DNA of 21,791 nt from a virus (lineage: Duplodnaviria; Heunggongvirae; Uroviricota; Caudoviricetes): the IMG/VR virus record IMGVR_UViG_3300029107_000019; one strand, given 5' to 3'. The notes under the pieces are model-generated. The model ran no database searches. It was not told the DNA's origin and saw only the letters and a list, made by a program, of their open reading frames with translations. The translations under genes were made by a program, and so were the position numbers. Below, piece after piece: positions 11,071 to 16,342 of the stretch. The stretch's first letter is position 1. Every line of letters starts with the position of its first letter.

Positions 11071-11768
11071 ACACTTGCTCCTTTCAGTCCGAACTTAGCT
11101 TTGATTTCTGCGATCTTCGCCAAAGCCTGTGCACGGTTTAGAGGTCTACCGCCCATGACAGGAAGTTGTTTCACCGGTTCAGGGATCGCTTCACCACGGT
11201 TAATTCGCGCGGTCATACAGGACAGTTCATCGGCAGCCATGCGCCGTAATTCCGCGTCAGTCAACGCATTGGCCCGCATGTTCTGGTACAGGTTGGTAAC
11301 CAGCCAGTAGTGCGCGTTTGATTTCCATGGATAAGACTCTGCATCTGGATACAGGCCACGCTTCCGACAATACTCATAGACCATATCAACCAGCTCGCTG
11401 ACGTTTGGCAGTCCGGCGATAACGGATGCTTCTTCCCGGCACCATGCAACAAACTGCCCGGGTGATGGCAGAAATGGTCGATTCTGCCGACGGGCTACGC
11501 GCATTCCTGCGTTAACCTGTTCCATTGTGGTGATCCCGTTTTCCCGGAAAGCCAGAACCCACTGGCGGCGGATTTCGTTCAGTTCGTTCTGGTCACGGTT
11601 AGCCAGACTCGCCGGGAAAGTTGCCAGTAACTGGCTGAACACACCGTTGATGATCTGCGCTACCTGCTGTACCTGCGGCTTTTCGTCGTACTGTTCCGGC
11701 ATGTTGTTGGCGATCCGGCGCATCTGCTCACGGTCAAAGTTAACCATCTGTGCGGCGATGTTTTTCAT
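11067..11768 (-). CDS. P: Replication protein P (DnaB helicase loader), lambda type
   Basis: 233 aa, essentially identical to lambda P as I recall it (MKNIAAQMVNFDREQMRRIANNMPEQYDEKPQ...AKFGLKGASV). Confidence 0.95.
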   Translation of the reverse strand: MKNIAAQMVNFDREQMRRIANNMPEQYDEKPQVQQVAQIINGVFSQLLATFPASLANRDQNELNEIRRQWVLAFRENGITTMEQVNAGMRVARRQNRPFLPSPGQFVAWCREEASVIAGLPNVSELVDMVYEYCRKRGLYPDAESYPWKSNAHYWLVTNLYQNMRANALTDAELRRMAADELSCMTARINRGEAIPEPVKQLPVMGGRPLNRAQALAKIAEIKAKFGLKGASV

Positions 11769-12694
11769 AGCTCCACCCCGTAAATCCAGTCAGTGTTCGT
11801 CAGGTCGAATTTTGGTTTGCCGGCTGTCACGCCAGCCTGTTGCTTGTTACGGTTGATTTCGAGTTGGGTCCACTTGTCGCGGAGTTTGGCCGGACTTAGC
11901 ACGTTACCGGACCAGAAGTTGTCCTGGCATGCCCAGCGGAACAGCACGCACATGTCGCGGTGGTTACGTCCGTCACGTTCACGCATCAGGCGGATATCGT
12001 TAGCCCACCCTGCAAAATTCGGTTTTCTGGCTGATGGCGCGATGGTCTTCACCATGTCAAACATCCACTCTGCGGCGGTCAGGTCTTCTGCTGTCCCCCA
12101 CTTTCTGCCGCTCTGAATTGCAGCATCTGGTTTCACCACAGGAAGATCCTTTTCTGGTTGGTCAGAGGATTCTCCAGAATTCTCGGACGAAAAAGGTTTT
12201 ATATTGTCTTTTGTTAGTTTGTCTTTTGTGTTTACCTGATTCGGGTAAACGCCTTTACCTGATTTGGGTAAACTTTTCTTACCTGATTCAGGTAAATTTA
12301 CCTCTTTCAGGTAAACTTTATTTTTCTTACCTGATTCGGGTAATGTTGACCATTCACTGACCACATTATTAATACCGATATTCCGCCCGCTCTGAATCAA
12401 AATCCCACGCTTTACCAGAACACTTTTTGTAGCAGAACACTTGTGCGGCAATATCCCGGTCAATTCGGACAGTTGCTCGTTGCTCACCCAATCCAGTTTT
12501 TTATTAAAGCCATATGTTTTGCGCATGACAGCCAGGAAGACCAGAAGCTGGTGCTGTGTTAATCCGGCCAGCATCACAGCTTCCAGCAACTCATTTGCAA
12601 TGCGCGTATAACCATCATCGAGATCTGCCACGCGCGGCTCCTTTTGTGCCGCATCCGGCACAGGAAAATTGAATATCTCAGCAGTGTTTGCCAT
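11765..12694 (-). CDS. O: Replication initiator O (lambdoid O family) containing ori iterons
   Basis: N-terminus MANTAEIFNF...VADLDDGYTRIANELLEA and C-terminus ...WTQLEINRNKQQAGVTAGKPKFDLTNTDWIYGVEL match lambda O domains; GGGAGGA RBS before the ATG at 12694; the ORF-track extension to 12784 is probably untranslated. Confidence 0.9.
   Translation of the reverse strand: MANTAEIFNFPVPDAAQKEPRVADLDDGYTRIANELLEAVMLAGLTQHQLLVFLAVMRKTYGFNKKLDWVSNEQLSELTGILPHKCSATKSVLVKRGILIQSGRNIGINNVVSEWSTLPESGKKNKVYLKEVNLPESGKKSLPKSGKGVYPNQVNTKDKLTKDNIKPFSSENSGESSDQPEKDLPVVKPDAAIQSGRKWGTAEDLTAAEWMFDMVKTIAPSARKPNFAGWANDIRLMRERDGRNHRDMCVLFRWACQDNFWSGNVLSPAKLRDKWTQLEINRNKQQAGVTAGKPKFDLTNTDWIYGVEL
12232..12343. repeat. 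Origin of replication: four ~18-bp iterons (TTACCTGATTYRGGTAAA) within the O gene, with an adjacent AT-rich region at 12195-12230
   Basis: Direct repeats read in the sequence; each iteron is internally palindromic (TACC...GGTA); reflected in the protein as repeated LPESGKK; arrangement as in lambda ori. Confidence 0.85.
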
Positions 12695-12780
12695 AATTCC
12701 TCCCGCAATGAGTGTGTTACGATTTGCACCTGAAAGTCGGTTCTGTTCCCGCAGACCGACTTTCGCCATTTTTGAACCTG

Positions 12781-13320
12781 TCATATTGCCCCCAGCATGG
12801 TGGTTACCATCGCCATCAATGGACCAGCCAGATCCGGGTCCACTCGAAACATCGACACAATGCCTTCACTCATCTCCTTCAGTTTCTGGTGGCGTGGTGC
12901 GTTGAGAATGACCGCCTGCTTTGCCTCACAGAGTTCCTTTTCCATTTCAGCCAGCCGAGCCATGAAGCTATCCTGCTCAACCAGGTGGCCGCGATATTCC
13001 AGCGGTAGTACCGCCAGAATTGCCGGGGTCAGTTCACGCACGTTATTTCGGTATTTTTCAGAATCGAATTTGTTATCGAGGAAGCGGAACAGCTTCTGGC
13101 GTGCACGGCTGACATCATCAGGGAAATCGATAGTGCCGCCGCCCTGCTCCCGATACTCATTCACAATGAGTGTGGCAACGACATCCTGATTATCTTCAGC
13201 CGACCAGGCGCGGACGGCATCACGGATTTTTTCGTGGCCTGGCACCTGTTTTGTTTGAGAACGATTTATCACCGCAGTCGGGCTAAATCCGCTAGTCTGT
13301 TGGTATGTAAGTGGTTGCAT
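12781..13320 (-). CDS. Hypothetical early regulatory protein in the cII position (possibly YdaT-like)
   Basis: 179 aa; AAGGAG RBS; located between cro-like and O; not similar to lambda CII; YdaT-like assignment is from memory and weak. Confidence 0.4.
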   Translation of the reverse strand: MQPLTYQQTSGFSPTAVINRSQTKQVPGHEKIRDAVRAWSAEDNQDVVATLIVNEYREQGGGTIDFPDDVSRARQKLFRFLDNKFDSEKYRNNVRELTPAILAVLPLEYRGHLVEQDSFMARLAEMEKELCEAKQAVILNAPRHQKLKEMSEGIVSMFRVDPDLAGPLMAMVTTMLGAI

Positions 13321-13389
13321 AATTGACTCCTTTAGTTTGAATTGACTGTTAAGTTGATTGCTTATTGTTAAAGAGCGTGAAATGGAAAT

Positions 13390-13620
13390 TTAAGCTGCGT
13401 TCTTTTCGGTGTGTGGAAACAACTTCGGAAGATCCGGGCGAATCTGGTATGCCTTCACTACTCCACCAGTAGCCGTAACAATGCTGCCGACATGTTCAGG
13501 GGATACCTTTGCTTTGTTGTGAAGCCACTTATAGACGGCCTGCTGTGAAACTTCGCAGGCAGCGCCCAGTTTCTTTTGTGAACCAACGATATTGATCGCT
13601 GTTTTGATAGCTGGATTCAT
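13390..13620 (-). CDS. cro: Cro-like HTH regulator (YdaS/Cro family)
   Basis: 76 aa; HTH (KKLGAACEVSQQAVYKWLHN); GGAGG RBS; divergent from the CI-like repressor across an operator region. Confidence 0.75.
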   Translation of the reverse strand: MNPAIKTAINIVGSQKKLGAACEVSQQAVYKWLHNKAKVSPEHVGSIVTATGGVVKAYQIRPDLPKLFPHTEKNAA

Positions 13621-13724
13621 AACAACCTCCGTGGTTAATTTGAATCAAGATTAAAACTATGGTTGTTTTTAGTCAACAACCATTTTCGTTTGATGGAATA
13701 AAACCTTGGTTGTACATTTGGACT
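13621..13724. promoter_or_regulatory. OR-like operator with divergent pR/pRM-type promoters
   Basis: Palindrome ATGGTTGTT-N7-AACAACCAT (13659-13683) and further GGTTGT/ACAACC half-sites; the same half-site recurs near the pL-like promoter; cI has no SD, consistent with a leaderless pRM transcript as in lambda. Confidence 0.6.
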
Positions 13725-14414
13725 ATGAAAACAACACTCTCAGAAAGACTTAAAGAAGCCAGATTAGCGCGAGGCCTTACACAAAAGGCGCTTGGGGATT
13801 TGGTCGGGGTTAGCCAAGCTGCTATTCAGAAAATCGAAACAGGGAAAGCTAACCAAACAACTAAAATCGTGGAGATCGCGAACGCTTTGGGTGTGCGCGC
13901 AGAATGGTTATCTTCTGGCGTTGGAAATATGTCAGACAGTACAGTGCAACCAATACAATCAACTGTCAGCCATTCCAAATACTTTAAGATTGACGTTCTT
14001 GATATAGAAGTGAGTGCCGGGCCGGGAGTCATCAACCGTGAATTTGTAGAAGTTCTACGCTCGGTTGAGTACTCGTTTGACGATGCTCGTCACATGTTCG
14101 ATGGCAGGAAGGCGGAAAATATCCGCATCATTAACGTGCGTGGTGACAGCATGTCAGGAACGATCGAACCAGGTGATCTGCTGTTCGTTGATATCACGGT
14201 TAAATCTTTCGACGGTGATGGTATCTATGCGTTTCTGTACGACGACACAGCCCATGTAAAGCGCCTGCAAATGATGAAAGATAAGCTACTGGTTATCTCT
14301 GATAACAAGAGCTACTCACCGTGGGACCCGATCGAGAAAGACGAGATGAACCGGGTGTTCATTTTCGGGAAGGTTATTGGCAGTATGCCGCAGACGTATA
14401 GGAAACACGGATAA
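13725..14414 (+). CDS. cI: CI-type prophage repressor (HTH_XRE N-domain plus LexA-like S24 peptidase C-domain)
   Basis: HTH LTQKALGDLVGVSQAAIQKIETGK; Ala-Gly autocleavage site (EVSAGPG); catalytic Ser (GDSMSGT) and Lys (HVKRLQ). The upstream ATG at 13659 lies in the operator region and is rejected. Confidence 0.85.
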   Translation: MKTTLSERLKEARLARGLTQKALGDLVGVSQAAIQKIETGKANQTTKIVEIANALGVRAEWLSSGVGNMSDSTVQPIQSTVSHSKYFKIDVLDIEVSAGPGVINREFVEVLRSVEYSFDDARHMFDGRKAENIRIINVRGDSMSGTIEPGDLLFVDITVKSFDGDGIYAFLYDDTAHVKRLQMMKDKLLVISDNKSYSPWDPIEKDEMNRVFIFGKVIGSMPQTYRKHG

Positions 14415-14493
14415 TCAGCTGCGTGCTGATGAGGCTTTTGGGTAATGCGCTGAAAGAATTCTTTATAAAAATAACATTACGGGAAAGGCAAAA

Positions 14494-14763
14494 ATGAGTG
14501 ATAAAAAACTTATAAAAAAATCAAATAACTGTGTAGATGCATATGCTGATGCATTTGGATATTCATCTTTTGGGGAAGATGACGATCGCTTAGGCTCCAT
14601 ATCTTTCTTTCAGCATGTTACAGAATGGGGCGCTGATGGTAGTAATGACACTGAAAACGTAAAGTACAACATTGCAACAATTCGCATGACGGAAGATTTA
14701 ATGCTTAAACTCGCTGACTTTATTCGCGATCAGCATGATAGAGCTAAAACCAATAAGTCATAA
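14494..14763 (+). CDS. Hypothetical acidic protein, 89 aa (first gene of the rex-position operon)
   Basis: ATG with AAAGG RBS about 80 nt downstream of cI, same strand; Asp-rich; AT-rich relative to neighbours; no family recognised. Confidence 0.55.
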   Translation: MSDKKLIKKSNNCVDAYADAFGYSSFGEDDDRLGSISFFQHVTEWGADGSNDTENVKYNIATIRMTEDLMLKLADFIRDQHDRAKTNKS

Positions 14764-14771
14764 TATTAACA

Positions 14772-15212
14772 ATGAAACACGGTTATTACGAAGCTCCAAA
14801 CCTAACTGAAAAGCTTGAACAAGCGGCAAGATCATCATCTTTGCACACTGCAGCATTTTCTCAATCAGCTGGTATGTCTGGCGGTAATGTACCTATGCTA
14901 CAATCAAGTGGTAGCGGTGGCTCTGGGAGTAATAATGTGCTTGAATCGAAAGTTGCAAAGCTTGAGTCTGATGTGTCCTATATCCGACGTGACGTTGATG
15001 AGCTTAAGACAGATGTCAAATCTATCGACAGAAACATGATCGCTGTTCTGGAGCGACTCGATTCAATAAAAGATTCACTAGCCAAAAAACCCTCCATCGA
15101 TGCTGTCGATAGAAAGATTTCAGACGCAAAGCTTGCGGTATTGCTTGGTGTTCCAGCAATCATCGCTGCAGGAACAGGTCTTTATAAGCTATCAATGTAC
15201 TTTTTTCTTTAG
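14772..15212 (+). CDS. Hypothetical tail-anchored membrane protein, 146 aa (Ser/Gly-rich N-region, central coiled coil, C-terminal TM helix)
   Basis: Begins 8 nt after the upstream stop; heptad-like KLESDVSYIRRDVDELKTDVKSIDRNMIAVLERLDSIKDSL; C-terminal hydrophobic LAVLLGVPAIIAAGTGLYKL; followed by a strong terminator. Confidence 0.55.
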   Translation: MKHGYYEAPNLTEKLEQAARSSSLHTAAFSQSAGMSGGNVPMLQSSGSGGSGSNNVLESKVAKLESDVSYIRRDVDELKTDVKSIDRNMIAVLERLDSIKDSLAKKPSIDAVDRKISDAKLAVLLGVPAIIAAGTGLYKLSMYFFL

Positions 15213-15287
15213 TGCTTAAGAAACTGCTCGCCACCTTGCATTACGCAAAGCGATTTTTCATTCCCTATTACCCTTTCTTATCCATAT

Positions 15288-15318
15288 AAACCCGGCCCCA
15301 GTGCCGGGTTTTCTTTTG
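15288..15318 (+). terminator. Intrinsic terminator closing the cI / rex-position operon
   Basis: aaacccggc-cccagt-gccgggttt hairpin followed by TTTTCTTTT. Confidence 0.8.
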
Positions 15319-15439
15319 CCTCCCCTCATCACACAAACCGTTCAAAAAACCACCACGACCTCGCTTCAGTTATCGCTATGCGATGCAAGTCACAAAATAA
15401 ATCCATCTTAAATACAACCAGTTATATCTAAAACAACCA

Positions 15440-15490
15440 ATAAAACAACTTTTGTTGTTGACGATAAAACAACTATGGTTTTAAATGAAT
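15440..15490 (+). promoter_or_regulatory. pL-like early promoter with overlapping OL-like operator
   Basis: TTGACG (15458-15463), 17-bp spacer, TTAAAT (15481-15486); palindrome AACAAC-TTTT-GTTGTT (15444-15459) carrying the same half-sites as OR. Confidence 0.5.
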
Positions 15491-15559
15491 TCATCGCAAC
15501 AACACAACGATACGGCAATCACCTGATTCACCGTTGCGATGACCGCTTAGATCCGCAGC

Positions 15560-15970
15560 TTGAATTTCAGCAGGCTCCGGGGAGTGCGAGGGGTGAAGCG
15601 GACGCGTGAACGTCGGTGTGACCAGCTGAAATCAACTCAACACTTCATACCTCAGTCGCTTCAACGAGGCGACTTAGTTATGACAACCGGCGGCCATCCA
15701 CCGCCTGAATACGCGCAGAAGTCTCTATATGTTCAGCAGCCCAGCTTACGGGCAGGAGTTTTTATGGTTCATCAACATTACGGAACGCAGACCGTTAATC
15801 GAGGTGCGGTCATGCCAGGAATGCTGGTCAAACACAAAGATGGTACCTGGACTGCATCAGCTAATTTACGCGGACGGCTTTATCTGCATCGCGGCATCGA
15901 GCGCACTTATACCCGTGACTTGCTCGTGGAAGTTTTTCTCGACGGGCGCGGCAACGGTCTGAATCACTAA
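15560..15970 (+). CDS. Hypothetical pL-proximal early protein in the N position; start uncertain (TTG 15560, or ATG 15680 giving 96 aa)
   Basis: Only ORF between the pL-like promoter and gam; the N-terminal extension encodes an Arg-rich stretch (GVKRTRERR) reminiscent of an N-type arginine-rich motif, but it lies in a highly structured GC-rich region without a clear RBS; the ATG at 15680 has a GAGG upstream. Confidence 0.4.
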   Translation: MNFSRLRGVRGVKRTRERRCDQLKSTQHFIPQSLQRGDLVMTTGGHPPPEYAQKSLYVQQPSLRAGVFMVHQHYGTQTVNRGAVMPGMLVKHKDGTWTASANLRGRLYLHRGIERTYTRDLLVEVFLDGRGNGLNH

Positions 15971-16045
15971 TCCCCTTTCCTGTTTACCTAATCAGCCTGG
16001 CATTTCGCGGGCGATATTTTCACAGCCATTTTCAGGAGTTCAGCC

Positions 16046-16342
16046 ATGAACGCTTATTACATTCAGGATCGTCTTGAGGCTCAGAGCTGGGCGCGTCACT
16101 ACCAGCAGATCGCCCATGAAGAGAAAGAGGCAGAACTGGCAGACGACATGGAAAAAGGCCTGCCCCAGCACCTGTTTGAATCGCTATGCATCGATCATTT
16201 GCAACGCCACGGGGCCAGCAAAAAAGCCATTACCCGTGCGTTTGATGACGATGTTGAGTTTCAGGAGCGCATGGCAGAACACATCCGGTACATGGTTGAA
16301 ACCATTGCTCACCACCAGGTTGATATTGATTCAGAGGTATAA
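16046..16342 (+). CDS. gam: Gam (RecBCD inhibitor), short form
   Basis: 98 aa, matching lambda Gam as I recall it ([21 protein letters not shown]...[10 protein letters not shown]); the upstream frame is closed by a stop at 15989-15991, so the long form is absent. Confidence 0.9.

What the first reader, a model, noticed from the sequence alone, without database searches (positions are those of the whole stretch)
14494..15318. Two-gene operon in the rexAB position: acidic 89-aa protein plus tail-anchored coiled-coil membrane protein (top candidate for a novel exclusion/abortive-infection module)
Immediately downstream of cI and on the same strand, which is the position of lambda's RexAB abortive-infection system, lie two tightly spaced AT-rich genes closed by a strong intrinsic terminator. 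Neither resembles RexA or RexB. The second protein has a Ser/Gly-rich N-region, a heptad-repeat coiled coil and a single C-terminal TM helix, an architecture reminiscent of XhlA-like membrane-disrupting proteins. The first is a small acidic soluble protein that could be a partner, sensor or antidote. Lysogen-expressed membrane effectors at this locus typically cause superinfection exclusion or abortive infection.
Basis: inference. Interest (0 to 1): 0.7.

Follow-up and report, generated by a model that had tools for sequence, protein, structure and literature searches.

The report
Repressor-linked two-gene prophage membrane cassette
Just after the repressor gene of an E. coli lambda-like prophage sit two real but uncharacterised genes, a small acidic protein and a membrane-anchored coiled-coil protein, which belong to a widespread family of prophage cassettes that probably protects the lysogen from other phages, though nobody has tested this.

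Summary
orfA (14494-14763, 89 aa, pI 5.0) and orfB (14772-15212, 146 aa) follow cI on the same strand. orfB has a Ser/Gly linker, a heptad coiled coil and one C-terminal TM helix. Both genes are AT-rich. They end at a strong terminator (15288-15311) and lie between the oR and oL operator clusters, which is lambda's rexAB slot.

Neither protein matches RexA, RexB, SieA, SieB or any Pfam, NCBIfam or PADLOC family. The XhlA resemblance is below threshold.

orfB belongs to a family found in 121 loci across Gammaproteobacteria and beyond. It is always the second gene of a pair. The upstream partner falls into 16 BLAST families, and the four largest are unrelated by profile comparison; orfA is a rare type. 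The pair sits in prophage accessory-gene slots: directly behind a CI-type repressor in 26 of 59 dereplicated cassettes, behind mnt in P22-like phages, or inside tail clusters.

Partner and orfB N-terminus travel together, while the coiled-coil/TM core swaps independently.

A conserved GGAGG-ATG inside the Gly linker suggests a second, shorter isoform.

My best reading is a lysogen-expressed sensor/adaptor plus membrane-effector exclusion module (confidence about 0.4). Function is untested. Relatives (epsilon34 gp44/45) were noted as rexAB-like in position in 2008.

The parts
13621..13714 (.). oR-like operator cluster between cro (-) and cI (+): half-sites TGGTTGTT, including the palindrome ATGGTTGTT-N7-AACAACCAT at 13659-13683
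   Evidence: Exact TGGTTGTT only at 13660, 13675 and 15432; one-mismatch copies at 13621 and 13707. Palindrome seen.
13725..14414 (+). CI-type prophage repressor (HTH_3 + Peptidase_S24). The longest ORF starts at 13659; RefSeq starts at 13725. It is the likely source of transcription into the cassette.
   Evidence: Pfam S24 1.5e-18 and HTH_3 6.5e-13; phrog_4 transcriptional repressor 5e-73; RefSeq 'S24 family peptidase'.
14415..14493 (+). cI-orfA spacer with no terminator; SD-like GGGAAAGG at 14481-14488, 5 nt before the orfA ATG
   Evidence: No terminator-like site. Fold is not different from shuffles, z -0.72. Sequence read.
14494..14763 (+). orfA: 89-aa acidic soluble protein (partner family F4 / phrog_4231). 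Predicted three long beta strands (17-26, 33-46, 53-66) plus a C-terminal helix (67-88).
   Evidence: pLDDT 78. Only 8 representatives besides chance hits among 1.84 billion proteins. dN/dS 0.05-0.16.
14772..15212 (+). orfB: 146-aa tail-anchored membrane protein (phrog_3556). It comprises an N-terminal partner-linked region, a Ser/Gly linker, a conserved coiled-coil core and a C-terminal TM helix.
14772..14936 (+). orfB residues 1-55: variable N-terminal region (predicted helix 11-31) and Ser/Gly-rich disordered linker (32-53). This part co-segregates with orfA across relatives.
   Evidence: Window vs UPF_BP1: A 76%, B N-terminus 74%, B core 32% identity. Lowest nucleotide identity (63%) between otherwise 97-100% identical prophages falls here. 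AF2.
14925..14939 (+). Candidate internal ribosome-binding site and start: GGGAG (14925-14929), 7 nt, then in-frame GTG (14937-14939, codon V56). This is a weaker version of the GGAGG-N(4-12)-ATG conserved in relatives.
   Evidence: ATG at this position in 47 of 51 representatives. GGAGG upstream in 41 of 50, against 23.8 +/- 3.3 under synonymous codon resampling. Gene callers pick the internal start in many assemblies.
14937..15083 (+). orfB residues 56-104: conserved coiled-coil core. The family motif is (M)LEARVAKLESDVSYIRRD; here it reads VLESKVAKLESDVSYIRRD.
   Evidence: Alignment A1. Motif found in 121 loci. Heptad 14 of 18. AF2 helix 54-104.
15126..15182 (+). orfB residues 119-137: the single C-terminal transmembrane helix. 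It is preceded by a basic stretch (KKPSIDAVDRKISDAK) and followed by only 9 residues, which implies N-in tail-anchored topology.
   Evidence: Kyte-Doolittle 19-residue mean 1.8 at residue 119. Nucleotide identity 99% here between alleles that differ elsewhere. Topology is inferred from the positive-inside rule.
15288..15318 (+). Intrinsic terminator closing the cassette (stem 15288-15311, T tract to 15318). A homologous terminator follows the orfB relative in Pantoea (L030 6385-6402).
15413..15475 (.). oL-like operator cluster / presumed pL, downstream of the terminator and upstream of kil, gam and bet
   Evidence: TGGTTGTT exact at 15432; one-mismatch copies at 15413, 15452 and 15468. Kil, Gam and Bet lie downstream.

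Best explanation
orfA and orfB form a two-gene accessory cassette ('moron') carried in the immunity region of a lambdoid prophage. It is transcribed in the lysogen by read-through from the repressor gene and closed by its own terminator.

orfB is a tail-anchored inner-membrane protein whose bulk faces the cytoplasm. Its conserved coiled-coil plus TM core is the constant working part. I propose that this core is an XhlA-like, membrane-perturbing effector.

The variable N-terminal ~50 residues of orfB, joined to the core by a flexible Gly/Ser linker, are a docking site for the cognate small soluble protein orfA.

I propose that orfA, one of many interchangeable partner types, senses or is titrated by a component of a superinfecting phage. 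This would release or activate the orfB core, which oligomerises and compromises the membrane, so the infection is aborted or excluded. That is functionally parallel to RexA/RexB.

A conserved internal ribosome-binding site and start codon in the linker probably yields a short core-only isoform. It would tune the activity or give self-immunity, as lambda S107/S105 or P22 SieB/Esc do (the latter two recalled from the literature, not checked here).

Shown: gene reality, architecture, position, operon structure, family-wide linkage to repressor genes, modular exchange, and the internal SD-ATG signal. Inferred: expression in lysogens, A-B binding, membrane damage, and any anti-phage phenotype.
For: Position and operon structure
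- The cassette lies between the oR and oL operator clusters, directly after cI, with no terminator in between and a strong terminator after orfB.
- In epsilon34 the partner gene starts at the repressor's stop codon. In UPF_BP1 it overlaps the end of mnt.

Conserved genomic context
- 121 loci carry an orfB-like gene with the same architecture.
- After dereplication to 62 cassettes, 26 of 59 with enough upstream sequence have a CI-type HTH/S24 repressor directly upstream on the same strand. These come from Escherichia, Citrobacter, Enterobacter, Edwardsiella, Xenorhabdus, Vibrio, Pseudoalteromonas and Pseudomonas.
- All five clusters with the window's partner type follow a lysogeny repressor, either cI or Mnt.
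- One cassette type occurs behind several different repressors.
- Other sites are classic moron slots: opposite-strand between tail genes K and I, and a prophage edge.

Modularity typical of conflict systems
- There are 16 partner families by BLAST. The four largest (F1-F4) are unrelated by hhalign; two Zn-ribbon groups, F2 and F5, are related to each other.
- The partner and the orfB N-terminus co-segregate, while the core swaps independently.
- The cassette is a divergence hotspot (63-83% identity) in prophages whose flanks are 97-100% identical.

Other support
- Both genes are under purifying selection.
- The internal start signal is conserved.
- Precedents for the slot: rexAB and BstA (PMC8585504); a P. 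putida RexAB-type system (PMC12894663); sieA between genes 16 and 9 of P22 (PMC10883804).
- PBSX XhlA is described as a membrane protein predicted to act synergistically with the holin XhlB (PMC5589764).
Against: - There is no functional datum of any kind.
- No match to any known defence protein: PADLOC gives only coiled-coil noise, and the accessions are absent from the DefensePredictor supplements.
- XhlA similarity is below Pfam's threshold, so a membrane-damaging activity is only an analogy.
- Expression in the lysogen is inferred, not measured. No convincing own promoter was found.
- In this window the internal start is GTG with a weaker GGGAG, so the short isoform may be made poorly or not at all here.
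- Lysogen-expressed genes in this slot are not always defence genes.
- The context survey used loci retrieved with a motif pattern and a home-made repressor profile, so the percentages are approximate.
Confidence: 0.4

Rival explanations
1. Membrane tether plus variable warhead. orfB is only a coiled-coil stalk that anchors the variable partner (orfA) at the cytoplasmic face of the inner membrane. There orfA blocks an early step of superinfection, such as genome entry or a membrane-associated host factor, without killing the cell. This would be non-abortive superinfection exclusion of the SieA or HK97 gp15 kind.
For: The same cassette occupies the sieA slot of three P22-like phages. SieA is an inner-membrane injection blocker (PMC10883804). 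Partner diversity with a constant anchor fits a variable-warhead design. orfB has no enzymatic domain.
Against: A mere tether would not need the roughly 20-residue core motif that is conserved from Enterobacteriaceae to Desulfobacter and Deferribacteraceae. It would also not need a conserved internal start that makes a partner-less core. The bulk of the protein is predicted to be cytoplasmic, away from the periplasmic injection conduit.
Confidence: 0.2
2. Prophage self-service. The pair is a toxin-antitoxin-like addiction module, or a regulator of the prophage's own induction and lysis. For example, an XhlA-like holin helper pre-loaded in the membrane, with orfA as its antidote, or a modulator of the lysis-lysogeny switch as reported for RexA.
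For: The layout is small acidic upstream protein plus tightly coupled downstream membrane protein. PBSX XhlA is described as predicted to act with a holin (PMC5589764). RexA modulates the lambda switch (cited in PMC12894663). There is tight linkage to repressor genes.
Against: The prophage has its own complete lysis cassette elsewhere: holin, GH24 endolysin and Rz. The cassette also occurs far from repressors, in tail-gene clusters and at prophage edges. orfA has no DNA-binding antitoxin-type domain. Swapping partners among unrelated folds is hard to reconcile with a conserved regulatory role.
Confidence: 0.15
3. Lysogenic-conversion genes unrelated to phage conflict. The pair would change envelope physiology, stress tolerance or virulence of the host, as bor and lom of lambda do.
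For: Lysogen-expressed morons often serve the host. Some relatives are named 'hemolysin XhlA' by NCBI. The Citrobacter variant adds a lipoprotein gene.
Against: The 'hemolysin' name comes from sub-threshold similarity to a family whose Pfam description refers to a cell-surface haemolysin. There is no signal peptide or secretion signal. The family is found in soil, marine and insect-associated bacteria as well as enterics, so a host-specific virulence role is unlikely. Modular partner exchange and allele replacement resemble conflict systems more than housekeeping.
Confidence: 0.15
4. The ORFs are decaying or non-functional passengers.
For: There is no functional annotation anywhere, and orfA is a very small family.
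Against: dN/dS is well below 1 for both genes. About 198 complete E. coli genomes carry most of the cassette region, 14415-15420. The architecture is conserved across classes.
Confidence: 0.03

Closest known systems
Lambda RexA/RexB (abortive infection, cI-rexA-rexB operon)
   Same: Same slot (between cI and oL/pL, same strand, closed by a terminator). Two genes, with a soluble first protein and a membrane second protein. The proposed logic is also the same: a cytoplasmic sensor activates a membrane effector.
   Different: No sequence similarity (no Pfam or PADLOC hit). RexB is reported as a multi-pass ion channel, whereas orfB has one C-terminal TM helix and a long coiled coil. orfA (89 aa) is much smaller than RexA. 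The partner here is interchangeable among unrelated folds.
Salmonella phage epsilon34 gp45/gp44 (and g341c, NM-3 homologues)
   Same: Same family of cassette: repressor gp46, then gp45 (partner), then gp44 (N-terminal region, Gly run, Met, coiled coil, C-terminal TM), then OL/PL and N. The phage's authors noted it as rexAB-like in position (PMC2629481).
   Different: The partner gp45 belongs to the large 134-167-aa family F1, which is unrelated to orfA. The gp44 core is more divergent. Function is equally unknown.
XhlA of Bacillus prophage PBSX (Pfam PF10779)
   Same: A small protein with an N-terminal coiled coil and a single C-terminal TM helix. The short isoform of orfB would have just this layout. 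Some relatives are named 'hemolysin XhlA' by NCBI.
   Different: The score is below Pfam's cut-off (11.5 bits here, at best 25.2 in relatives, against 34.7). XhlA sits in a lysis cassette with a holin and an endolysin. This cassette sits in lysogeny-expressed slots and has an N-terminal adaptor and a partner gene.
P22 SieA and SieB superinfection exclusion proteins
   Same: The cassette replaces sieA downstream of mnt in three P22-like phages. All are prophage-expressed. From memory, SieB also makes an in-frame internal-start product (Esc) that restrains it, which would be a precedent for the dual start.
   Different: SieA has three or four TM helices and a FxRYPxEAxxFNK motif (PMC10883804), neither of which is present here. 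There is no Pfam hit to SieB.
BstA and other single-gene defences downstream of prophage repressors
   Same: Conserved placement behind diverse prophage repressors, presumably sharing the repressor promoter (PMC8585504).
   Different: BstA is a single large soluble protein that acts at phage DNA replication sites. There is no similarity in sequence or architecture.

Membership tests
RexAB (lambda) | Sequence membership in the RexA and RexB protein families | tested here: not met
   The Pfam scan at E<=1 gave no family for orfA and only coiled-coil families for orfB. PADLOC gave no Rex hit.
RexAB (lambda) | Multi-pass membrane channel as the second protein | tested here: not met
   orfB has a single hydrophobic segment, residues 119-137 (AF2).
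RexAB (lambda) | Located downstream of cI in the same transcription unit, inside the immunity region | tested here: met
   Co-transcription is inferred from the absence of a terminator.
RexAB (lambda) | Abortive-infection phenotype with membrane depolarisation | not testable with these tools
   Needs phage challenge and membrane-potential assays.
XhlA (Pfam PF10779) | Score at or above Pfam's gathering threshold (34.7 bits) | tested here: not met
   orfB scores 11.5 bits, E 0.34. The best relative, P0103, scores 25.2 bits.
XhlA (Pfam PF10779) | N-terminal coiled coil followed by one C-terminal TM helix in a protein of about 70-120 aa | tested here: met
   This holds for residues 56-146, the candidate short isoform. 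The full-length protein has an extra 55-residue N-terminal part.
XhlA (Pfam PF10779) | Encoded in a lysis cassette next to a holin and an endolysin | tested here: not met
   The prophage's holin, GH24 endolysin and Rz genes lie about 10 kb away. None of the surveyed cassettes is next to lysis genes.
P22 SieA | Three to four TM helices and the FxRYPxEAxxFNK motif (PMC10883804) | tested here: not met
   orfB has one TM helix, and the motif is in neither protein.
P22 SieA | Located between the gene 16 and gene 9 homologues of P22-like phages | tested here: met
   This holds for relatives of the cassette in UPF_BP1, L043 and L059. It does not apply to this lambdoid window.
Phage moron (accessory transcription unit) | Lower GC than the flanks, own terminator, and presence or absence between otherwise similar phages | tested here: met
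   GC 36-43% against 46-52%. Terminator. Allele replacement in a 97-100% identical backbone. The same pair occurs in four kinds of slot.
Phage moron (accessory transcription unit) | Own promoter active in the lysogen | tested here: inconclusive
   Only chance-level sigma-70 matches were found. In the cI and mnt contexts, read-through would suffice.
Type II toxin-antitoxin | Upstream antitoxin with a DNA-binding domain that neutralises a downstream toxin of a known toxin fold | tested here: not met
   orfA has no HTH, RHH or AbrB-type hit and only weak generic fold matches. orfB matches no toxin family. Neutralisation itself is not testable here.
orfB family (phrog_3556 and relatives), as defined here | Variable N-terminus, Gly run, Met, (L)E-x-R-V-A-K-L-E-S-D-V motif, coiled coil, C-terminal TM; second gene of a same-strand pair | tested here: met
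   phrog_3556 4.3e-54; alignment A1; survey. The window differs in having Val (GTG) instead of Met.

The most novel reading that the evidence does not exclude
The pair is the E. coli representative of a large, undescribed class of prophage immunity-region defence systems spread across Gammaproteobacteria and beyond. In this class a universal tail-anchored XhlA-like effector is made in two isoforms from a conserved internal start hidden in a poly-glycine linker. It is armed by plug-in sensor proteins of unrelated folds (beta-rich, zinc-ribbon, and the orfA type) that dock on a co-varying N-terminal adaptor. That would amount to a modular, RexAB-like abortive-infection platform with built-in self-control.
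Probability: 0.3. Interest if true: 0.8.

Novelty: new variant of a known kind. Interest (0 to 1): 0.62.

Why it matters
The cI-to-pL slot of lambdoid phages holds RexAB, the oldest known abortive-infection system, whose mechanism is still debated. It also holds newer defences such as BstA.

A second, unrelated two-protein module (soluble protein plus membrane protein) sits in the same slot. It is conserved behind many different repressors and in many genera, with swappable partners. This would give a tractable comparative system for asking how prophages couple a cytoplasmic sensor to a membrane effector, and how they avoid killing themselves.

The conserved SD-ATG inside a glycine linker is a directly testable case of programmed dual-isoform expression.

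If the module is defensive, it is missing from the 2023 PADLOC detection library searched here (PADLOC-DB 2.0.0). About 4% of complete E. coli genomes (198 of 5,426) carry most of this cassette region.

Tried and rejected
- Pfam, NCBIfam, PADLOC and PHROGs scans of both proteins and of ten alternative partners gave no named family. orfB hits are coiled-coil noise.
- PDB sequence searches with profiles of both proteins found nothing significant.
- An exhaustive profile search for orfA found only 8 relatives, plus WD40-type chance hits.
- hhalign found no link between orfA and the other partner families.
- Promoter scans for an autonomous cassette promoter were at chance level.
- A terminator-like hairpin on the antisense strand inside orfB (15116-15090) is only patchily conserved. 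It can be explained by the palindromic coding of the PS-x-D-x-VD motif, so I rejected it as a feature.
- An Rfam search of 13300-16100 found nothing.
- Literature: the accession numbers appear in no searchable paper and not in the DefensePredictor supplements. Brenes & Laub 2025 (E. coli prophage defence screen) could not be opened, so a prior functional test there cannot be excluded.
- A global correlation of partner identity with orfB N-terminus identity across unrelated families is uninformative (rho 0.05). The linkage shows only within families and in specific recombinant pairs.
Full report
**1. What is in the window**

The window is a lambdoid prophage read in the reverse of the usual lambda map. 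Over the finding it is 100% identical to the chromosome of E. coli strain 7CC, where the prophage sits next to icd.

The gene order is:
- replication O (11765-12784, -)
- a YdaT/cII-position gene (12781-13320, -)
- cro (13390-13620, -)
- the CI-type HTH/S24 repressor (13659 or 13725 to 14414, +)
- orfA (14494-14763, +) and orfB (14772-15212, +)
- a terminator (15288-15311)
- kil, gam, bet and exo on the + strand

Exact copies of the operator half-site TGGTTGTT occur only at 13660 and 13675 and at 15432, with one-mismatch copies clustered around them. The two genes therefore lie inside the immunity region between oR and oL, exactly where lambda has rexA-rexB.

**2. Check of the observation**

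Every descriptive element holds.
- The cI-orfA spacer (79 nt) has no terminator and folds no better than shuffles.
- orfA and orfB are 8 nt apart.
- The terminator has a 9-bp GC-rich stem and a T tract, dG -15.1 kcal/mol, z -4.1.
- GC is 36% (orfA) and 43% (orfB), against 46-52% in the flanks.
- orfA is acidic (pI 4.98) and has no hydrophobic segment.
- orfB has a Ser/Gly-rich stretch, a heptad pattern (14 of 18 a/d positions hydrophobic) and one C-terminal hydrophobic helix at residues 119-137.
- AF2 models agree. orfA has three long beta strands and a C-terminal helix (pLDDT 78). orfB has helix 11-31, a disordered 32-53, a long helix 54-104, a break at KKPS, and helix 109-145 (pLDDT 61).
- dN/dS between alleles is 0.05-0.16 for orfA, 0.1-0.3 for the orfB core and 0.1-0.6 for the orfB N-terminus. 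All parts are translated and constrained.

**3. No known family**

Pfam, NCBIfam and PADLOC give nothing for orfA and only sub-threshold coiled-coil hits for orfB (FlaC 2e-4, XhlA 0.34). PHROGs place them in phrog_4231 and phrog_3556, both of unknown function. RefSeq calls both 'hypothetical protein'.

orfA is a tiny family. It has 15 clusters in a 5.8-billion-protein index. A profile search of 1.84 billion representatives found only 8 relatives.

**4. The wider family of orfB**

orfB has about 108 cluster relatives. Only residues ~55-146 are conserved and the N-terminus varies.

Pattern scans of one genome per species and of IMG/VR, plus look-ups of individual relatives, gave 121 loci with the same layout. 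The layout is:
- a variable N-terminal 30-80 residues
- a glycine run
- a Met
- the motif (L)E-A-R-V-A-K-L-E-S-D-V-x-Y/H-I-K/R-R-D
- a coiled coil of variable length
- a C-terminal TM helix

Hosts include Escherichia, Salmonella, Citrobacter, Enterobacter, Klebsiella, Pantoea, Erwinia, Serratia, Yersinia, Xenorhabdus, Photorhabdus, Vibrio, Pseudoalteromonas and Pseudomonas. A few loci come from outside the Gammaproteobacteria.

Some relatives are named 'hemolysin XhlA' by NCBI. The best Pfam XhlA score is 25.2 bits against a 34.7-bit cut-off, so I treat XhlA as an architectural analogue, not a family assignment.

**5. Always a pair, with interchangeable partners**

In nearly all loci a same-strand gene ends at or overlaps the start of the orfB-like gene. 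These partners fall into 16 BLAST families:
- a beta-rich 134-167-aa family (25 of 62 dereplicated cassettes)
- CxxC...CxxCG zinc-ribbon proteins (about 15)
- a 93-99-aa family (3)
- the orfA type (5: the window, a second E. coli allele, and three P22-like phages)

Profile-profile comparison links only the two zinc-ribbon groups to each other. orfA is unrelated to the other large families. None of the partners has a Pfam or PADLOC hit.

**6. Where the pair sits**

Among 59 dereplicated cassettes with enough upstream sequence, 26 have a CI-type HTH or HTH-S24 repressor directly upstream on the same strand. I detected these with a home-made profile and confirmed ten by Pfam.

Three more cassettes, all of the orfA type, lie directly after mnt in the immI region of P22-like phages, between genes 9/ant/arc/mnt and gene 16. 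This is the sieA slot (PMC10883804). So all five orfA-type cassettes follow a lysogeny repressor.

One cassette type can follow several different repressors. The Citrobacter type follows a 251-aa S24 repressor, a 232-240-aa S24 repressor and a 155-aa CI_repr-type repressor.

The remaining sites are also accessory-gene slots. One is an opposite-strand insertion between lambda-like tail genes K and I. Another is a prophage edge next to the chromosomal ivy gene. Others lie after an antirepressor or a DUF6246 gene.

In the curated genome of Salmonella phage epsilon34 the order is OR, repressor gp46, gp45, gp44, OL/PL, N. gp45 starts at the repressor's stop codon. [quoted passage not shown]

**7. 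Modular exchange**

The partner and the orfB N-terminus move together, while the core moves independently.

| Comparison | Partner identity | orfB N-terminus identity | orfB core identity |
|---|---|---|---|
| Window vs UPF_BP1 | 76% | 74% | 32% |
| L069 vs L114 | 98% | 100% | 44% |
| Window vs Pantoea L030 | 24% (unrelated) | 24% (chance level) | 79% |

Within partner families, partner identity correlates with N-terminus identity (rho 0.36) more than with core identity (rho 0.13). The break point is the Gly linker. This is the main basis for proposing that the N-terminus docks the partner.

Between two E. coli prophages whose flanks are 97-100% identical, the cassette drops to 63-83% identity. 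The minimum falls over the orfB N-terminus, and the TM-coding part is 99% identical. With dS above 1 in orfA, this is replacement by an old allele, as is common at conflict loci.

**8. A hidden internal start**

In 47 of 51 representatives a Met follows the Gly run.

The Gly codons are chosen so that GGAGG lies 4-12 nt upstream of that ATG in 41 of 50 representatives. Synonymous codon resampling gives 23.8 +/- 3.3, with a maximum of 34 in 2000 trials. This holds even in proteins with only two glycines there (GAT GGA GGC GAC GAC ATG).

Gene callers pick this start in many assemblies. There are about twenty 90-93-aa clusters, and the same locus is called as 90 aa or as 131 aa. Because the N-terminal part is also under purifying selection, both a long and a short, core-only product are likely.

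In this window the signal is weaker: GGGAG, 7 nt, then GTG at 14937.

**9. Mechanism proposed**

Shown:
- a constrained two-gene unit in a lysogeny-expressed slot
- a cytoplasm-facing tail-anchored coiled-coil protein (topology inferred from the basic stretch before the TM helix and the 9-residue tail after it)
- partner/N-terminus linkage
- the dual-start signal

Inferred:
- orfA binds the orfB N-terminus.
- A phage cue acts through orfA.
- The conserved core then perturbs the membrane, as XhlA-like holin helpers do (PMC5589764) and as RexB is reported to do.
- The short isoform tunes or restrains this activity. Precedents recalled from the literature, not checked here, are lambda S107/S105 and P22 SieB/Esc.

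I put this at about 0.4. Rivals are a membrane tether for a non-abortive exclusion factor (0.2), a prophage self-service or TA-like module (0.15), host-directed lysogenic conversion (0.15) and junk (0.03).

**10. Comparison with what is known, and novelty**

The cassette works like RexAB in layout and position but fails every sequence and architecture test for RexAB, SieA, SieB and (by threshold) XhlA. The slot is a recognised mosaic hotspot that also holds BstA and a Pseudomonas RexAB-type system (PMC8585504; PMC12894663).

The family has been seen before (epsilon34 gp44/45; PHROGs) but I found no functional study. I could not open Brenes & Laub 2025, a screen of E. coli prophage defences, so prior testing there cannot be excluded.

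I rate it a new variant of a known kind (a prophage immunity-region two-component module), with real but unproven potential.

**Caveats**

- Loci were retrieved with a peptide pattern, which favours the conserved motif.
- Dereplicated cassettes are not phylogenetically independent.
- Repressor detection used my own profile.
- All function is inferred.

Noticed in passing
window 15321-15763 (and ORF 15560-15970): About 440 nt lie between the cassette terminator and the annotated kil gene (15764-15970), with no annotated gene and no recognisable N gene. The long ORF in frame with kil (TTG at 15560) begins with an arginine-rich stretch (RGVRGVKRTRERR) reminiscent of N-type RNA-binding motifs. Pfam gave no hit for it.
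   Followed up: no
window 15090-15116 (- strand), inside orfB: There is a terminator-like hairpin plus T run on the antisense strand (11 pairs, dG about -18). It is present in some relatives (L030, L003, L048) but absent in others. It probably follows from the palindromic coding of the KKPS-x-D-x-VD motif.
   Followed up: partly
L034-L037 6474-6854 (Citrobacter prophages): The Citrobacter version of the cassette has a third same-strand gene encoding a 126-aa predicted lipoprotein (signal peptide with LTGC lipobox). The P22-like versions L043 and L002 have a small TM protein gene after the pair. The window has no third gene.
   Followed up: no
L030 and L038 6038-6066; window 14735-14764: A sigma-70-like match (TTGAAG-17-CATAAT) sits at the same place inside the orfB N-terminal coding region of two relatives, upstream of the internal start. 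In the window a weaker match lies at the end of orfA. It could drive a core-only transcript, like pLit for rexB, but the matches are at chance level.
   Followed up: partly
L030 6385-6402 vs window 15288-15311: The terminator after the Pantoea orfB relative (CCCGGC...GCCGGGTTTTCTTT) resembles the window's terminator. The terminator seems to travel with this type of orfB core.
   Followed up: no
window 1-21791 / L001: The prophage is integrated next to icd and carries DLP12-like cargo (emrE, ybcK recombinase, ybcL, ybcM, bor, nohD), according to the RefSeq annotation of strain 7CC.
   Followed up: no
L010 7947-8426 (Pseudoalteromonas): This orfB relative passes the Pfam threshold for CCDC90-like (PF07798; 43.6 bits against 33.5), a family of coiled-coil proteins. 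This hints at a broader superfamily link that I did not explore.
   Followed up: no
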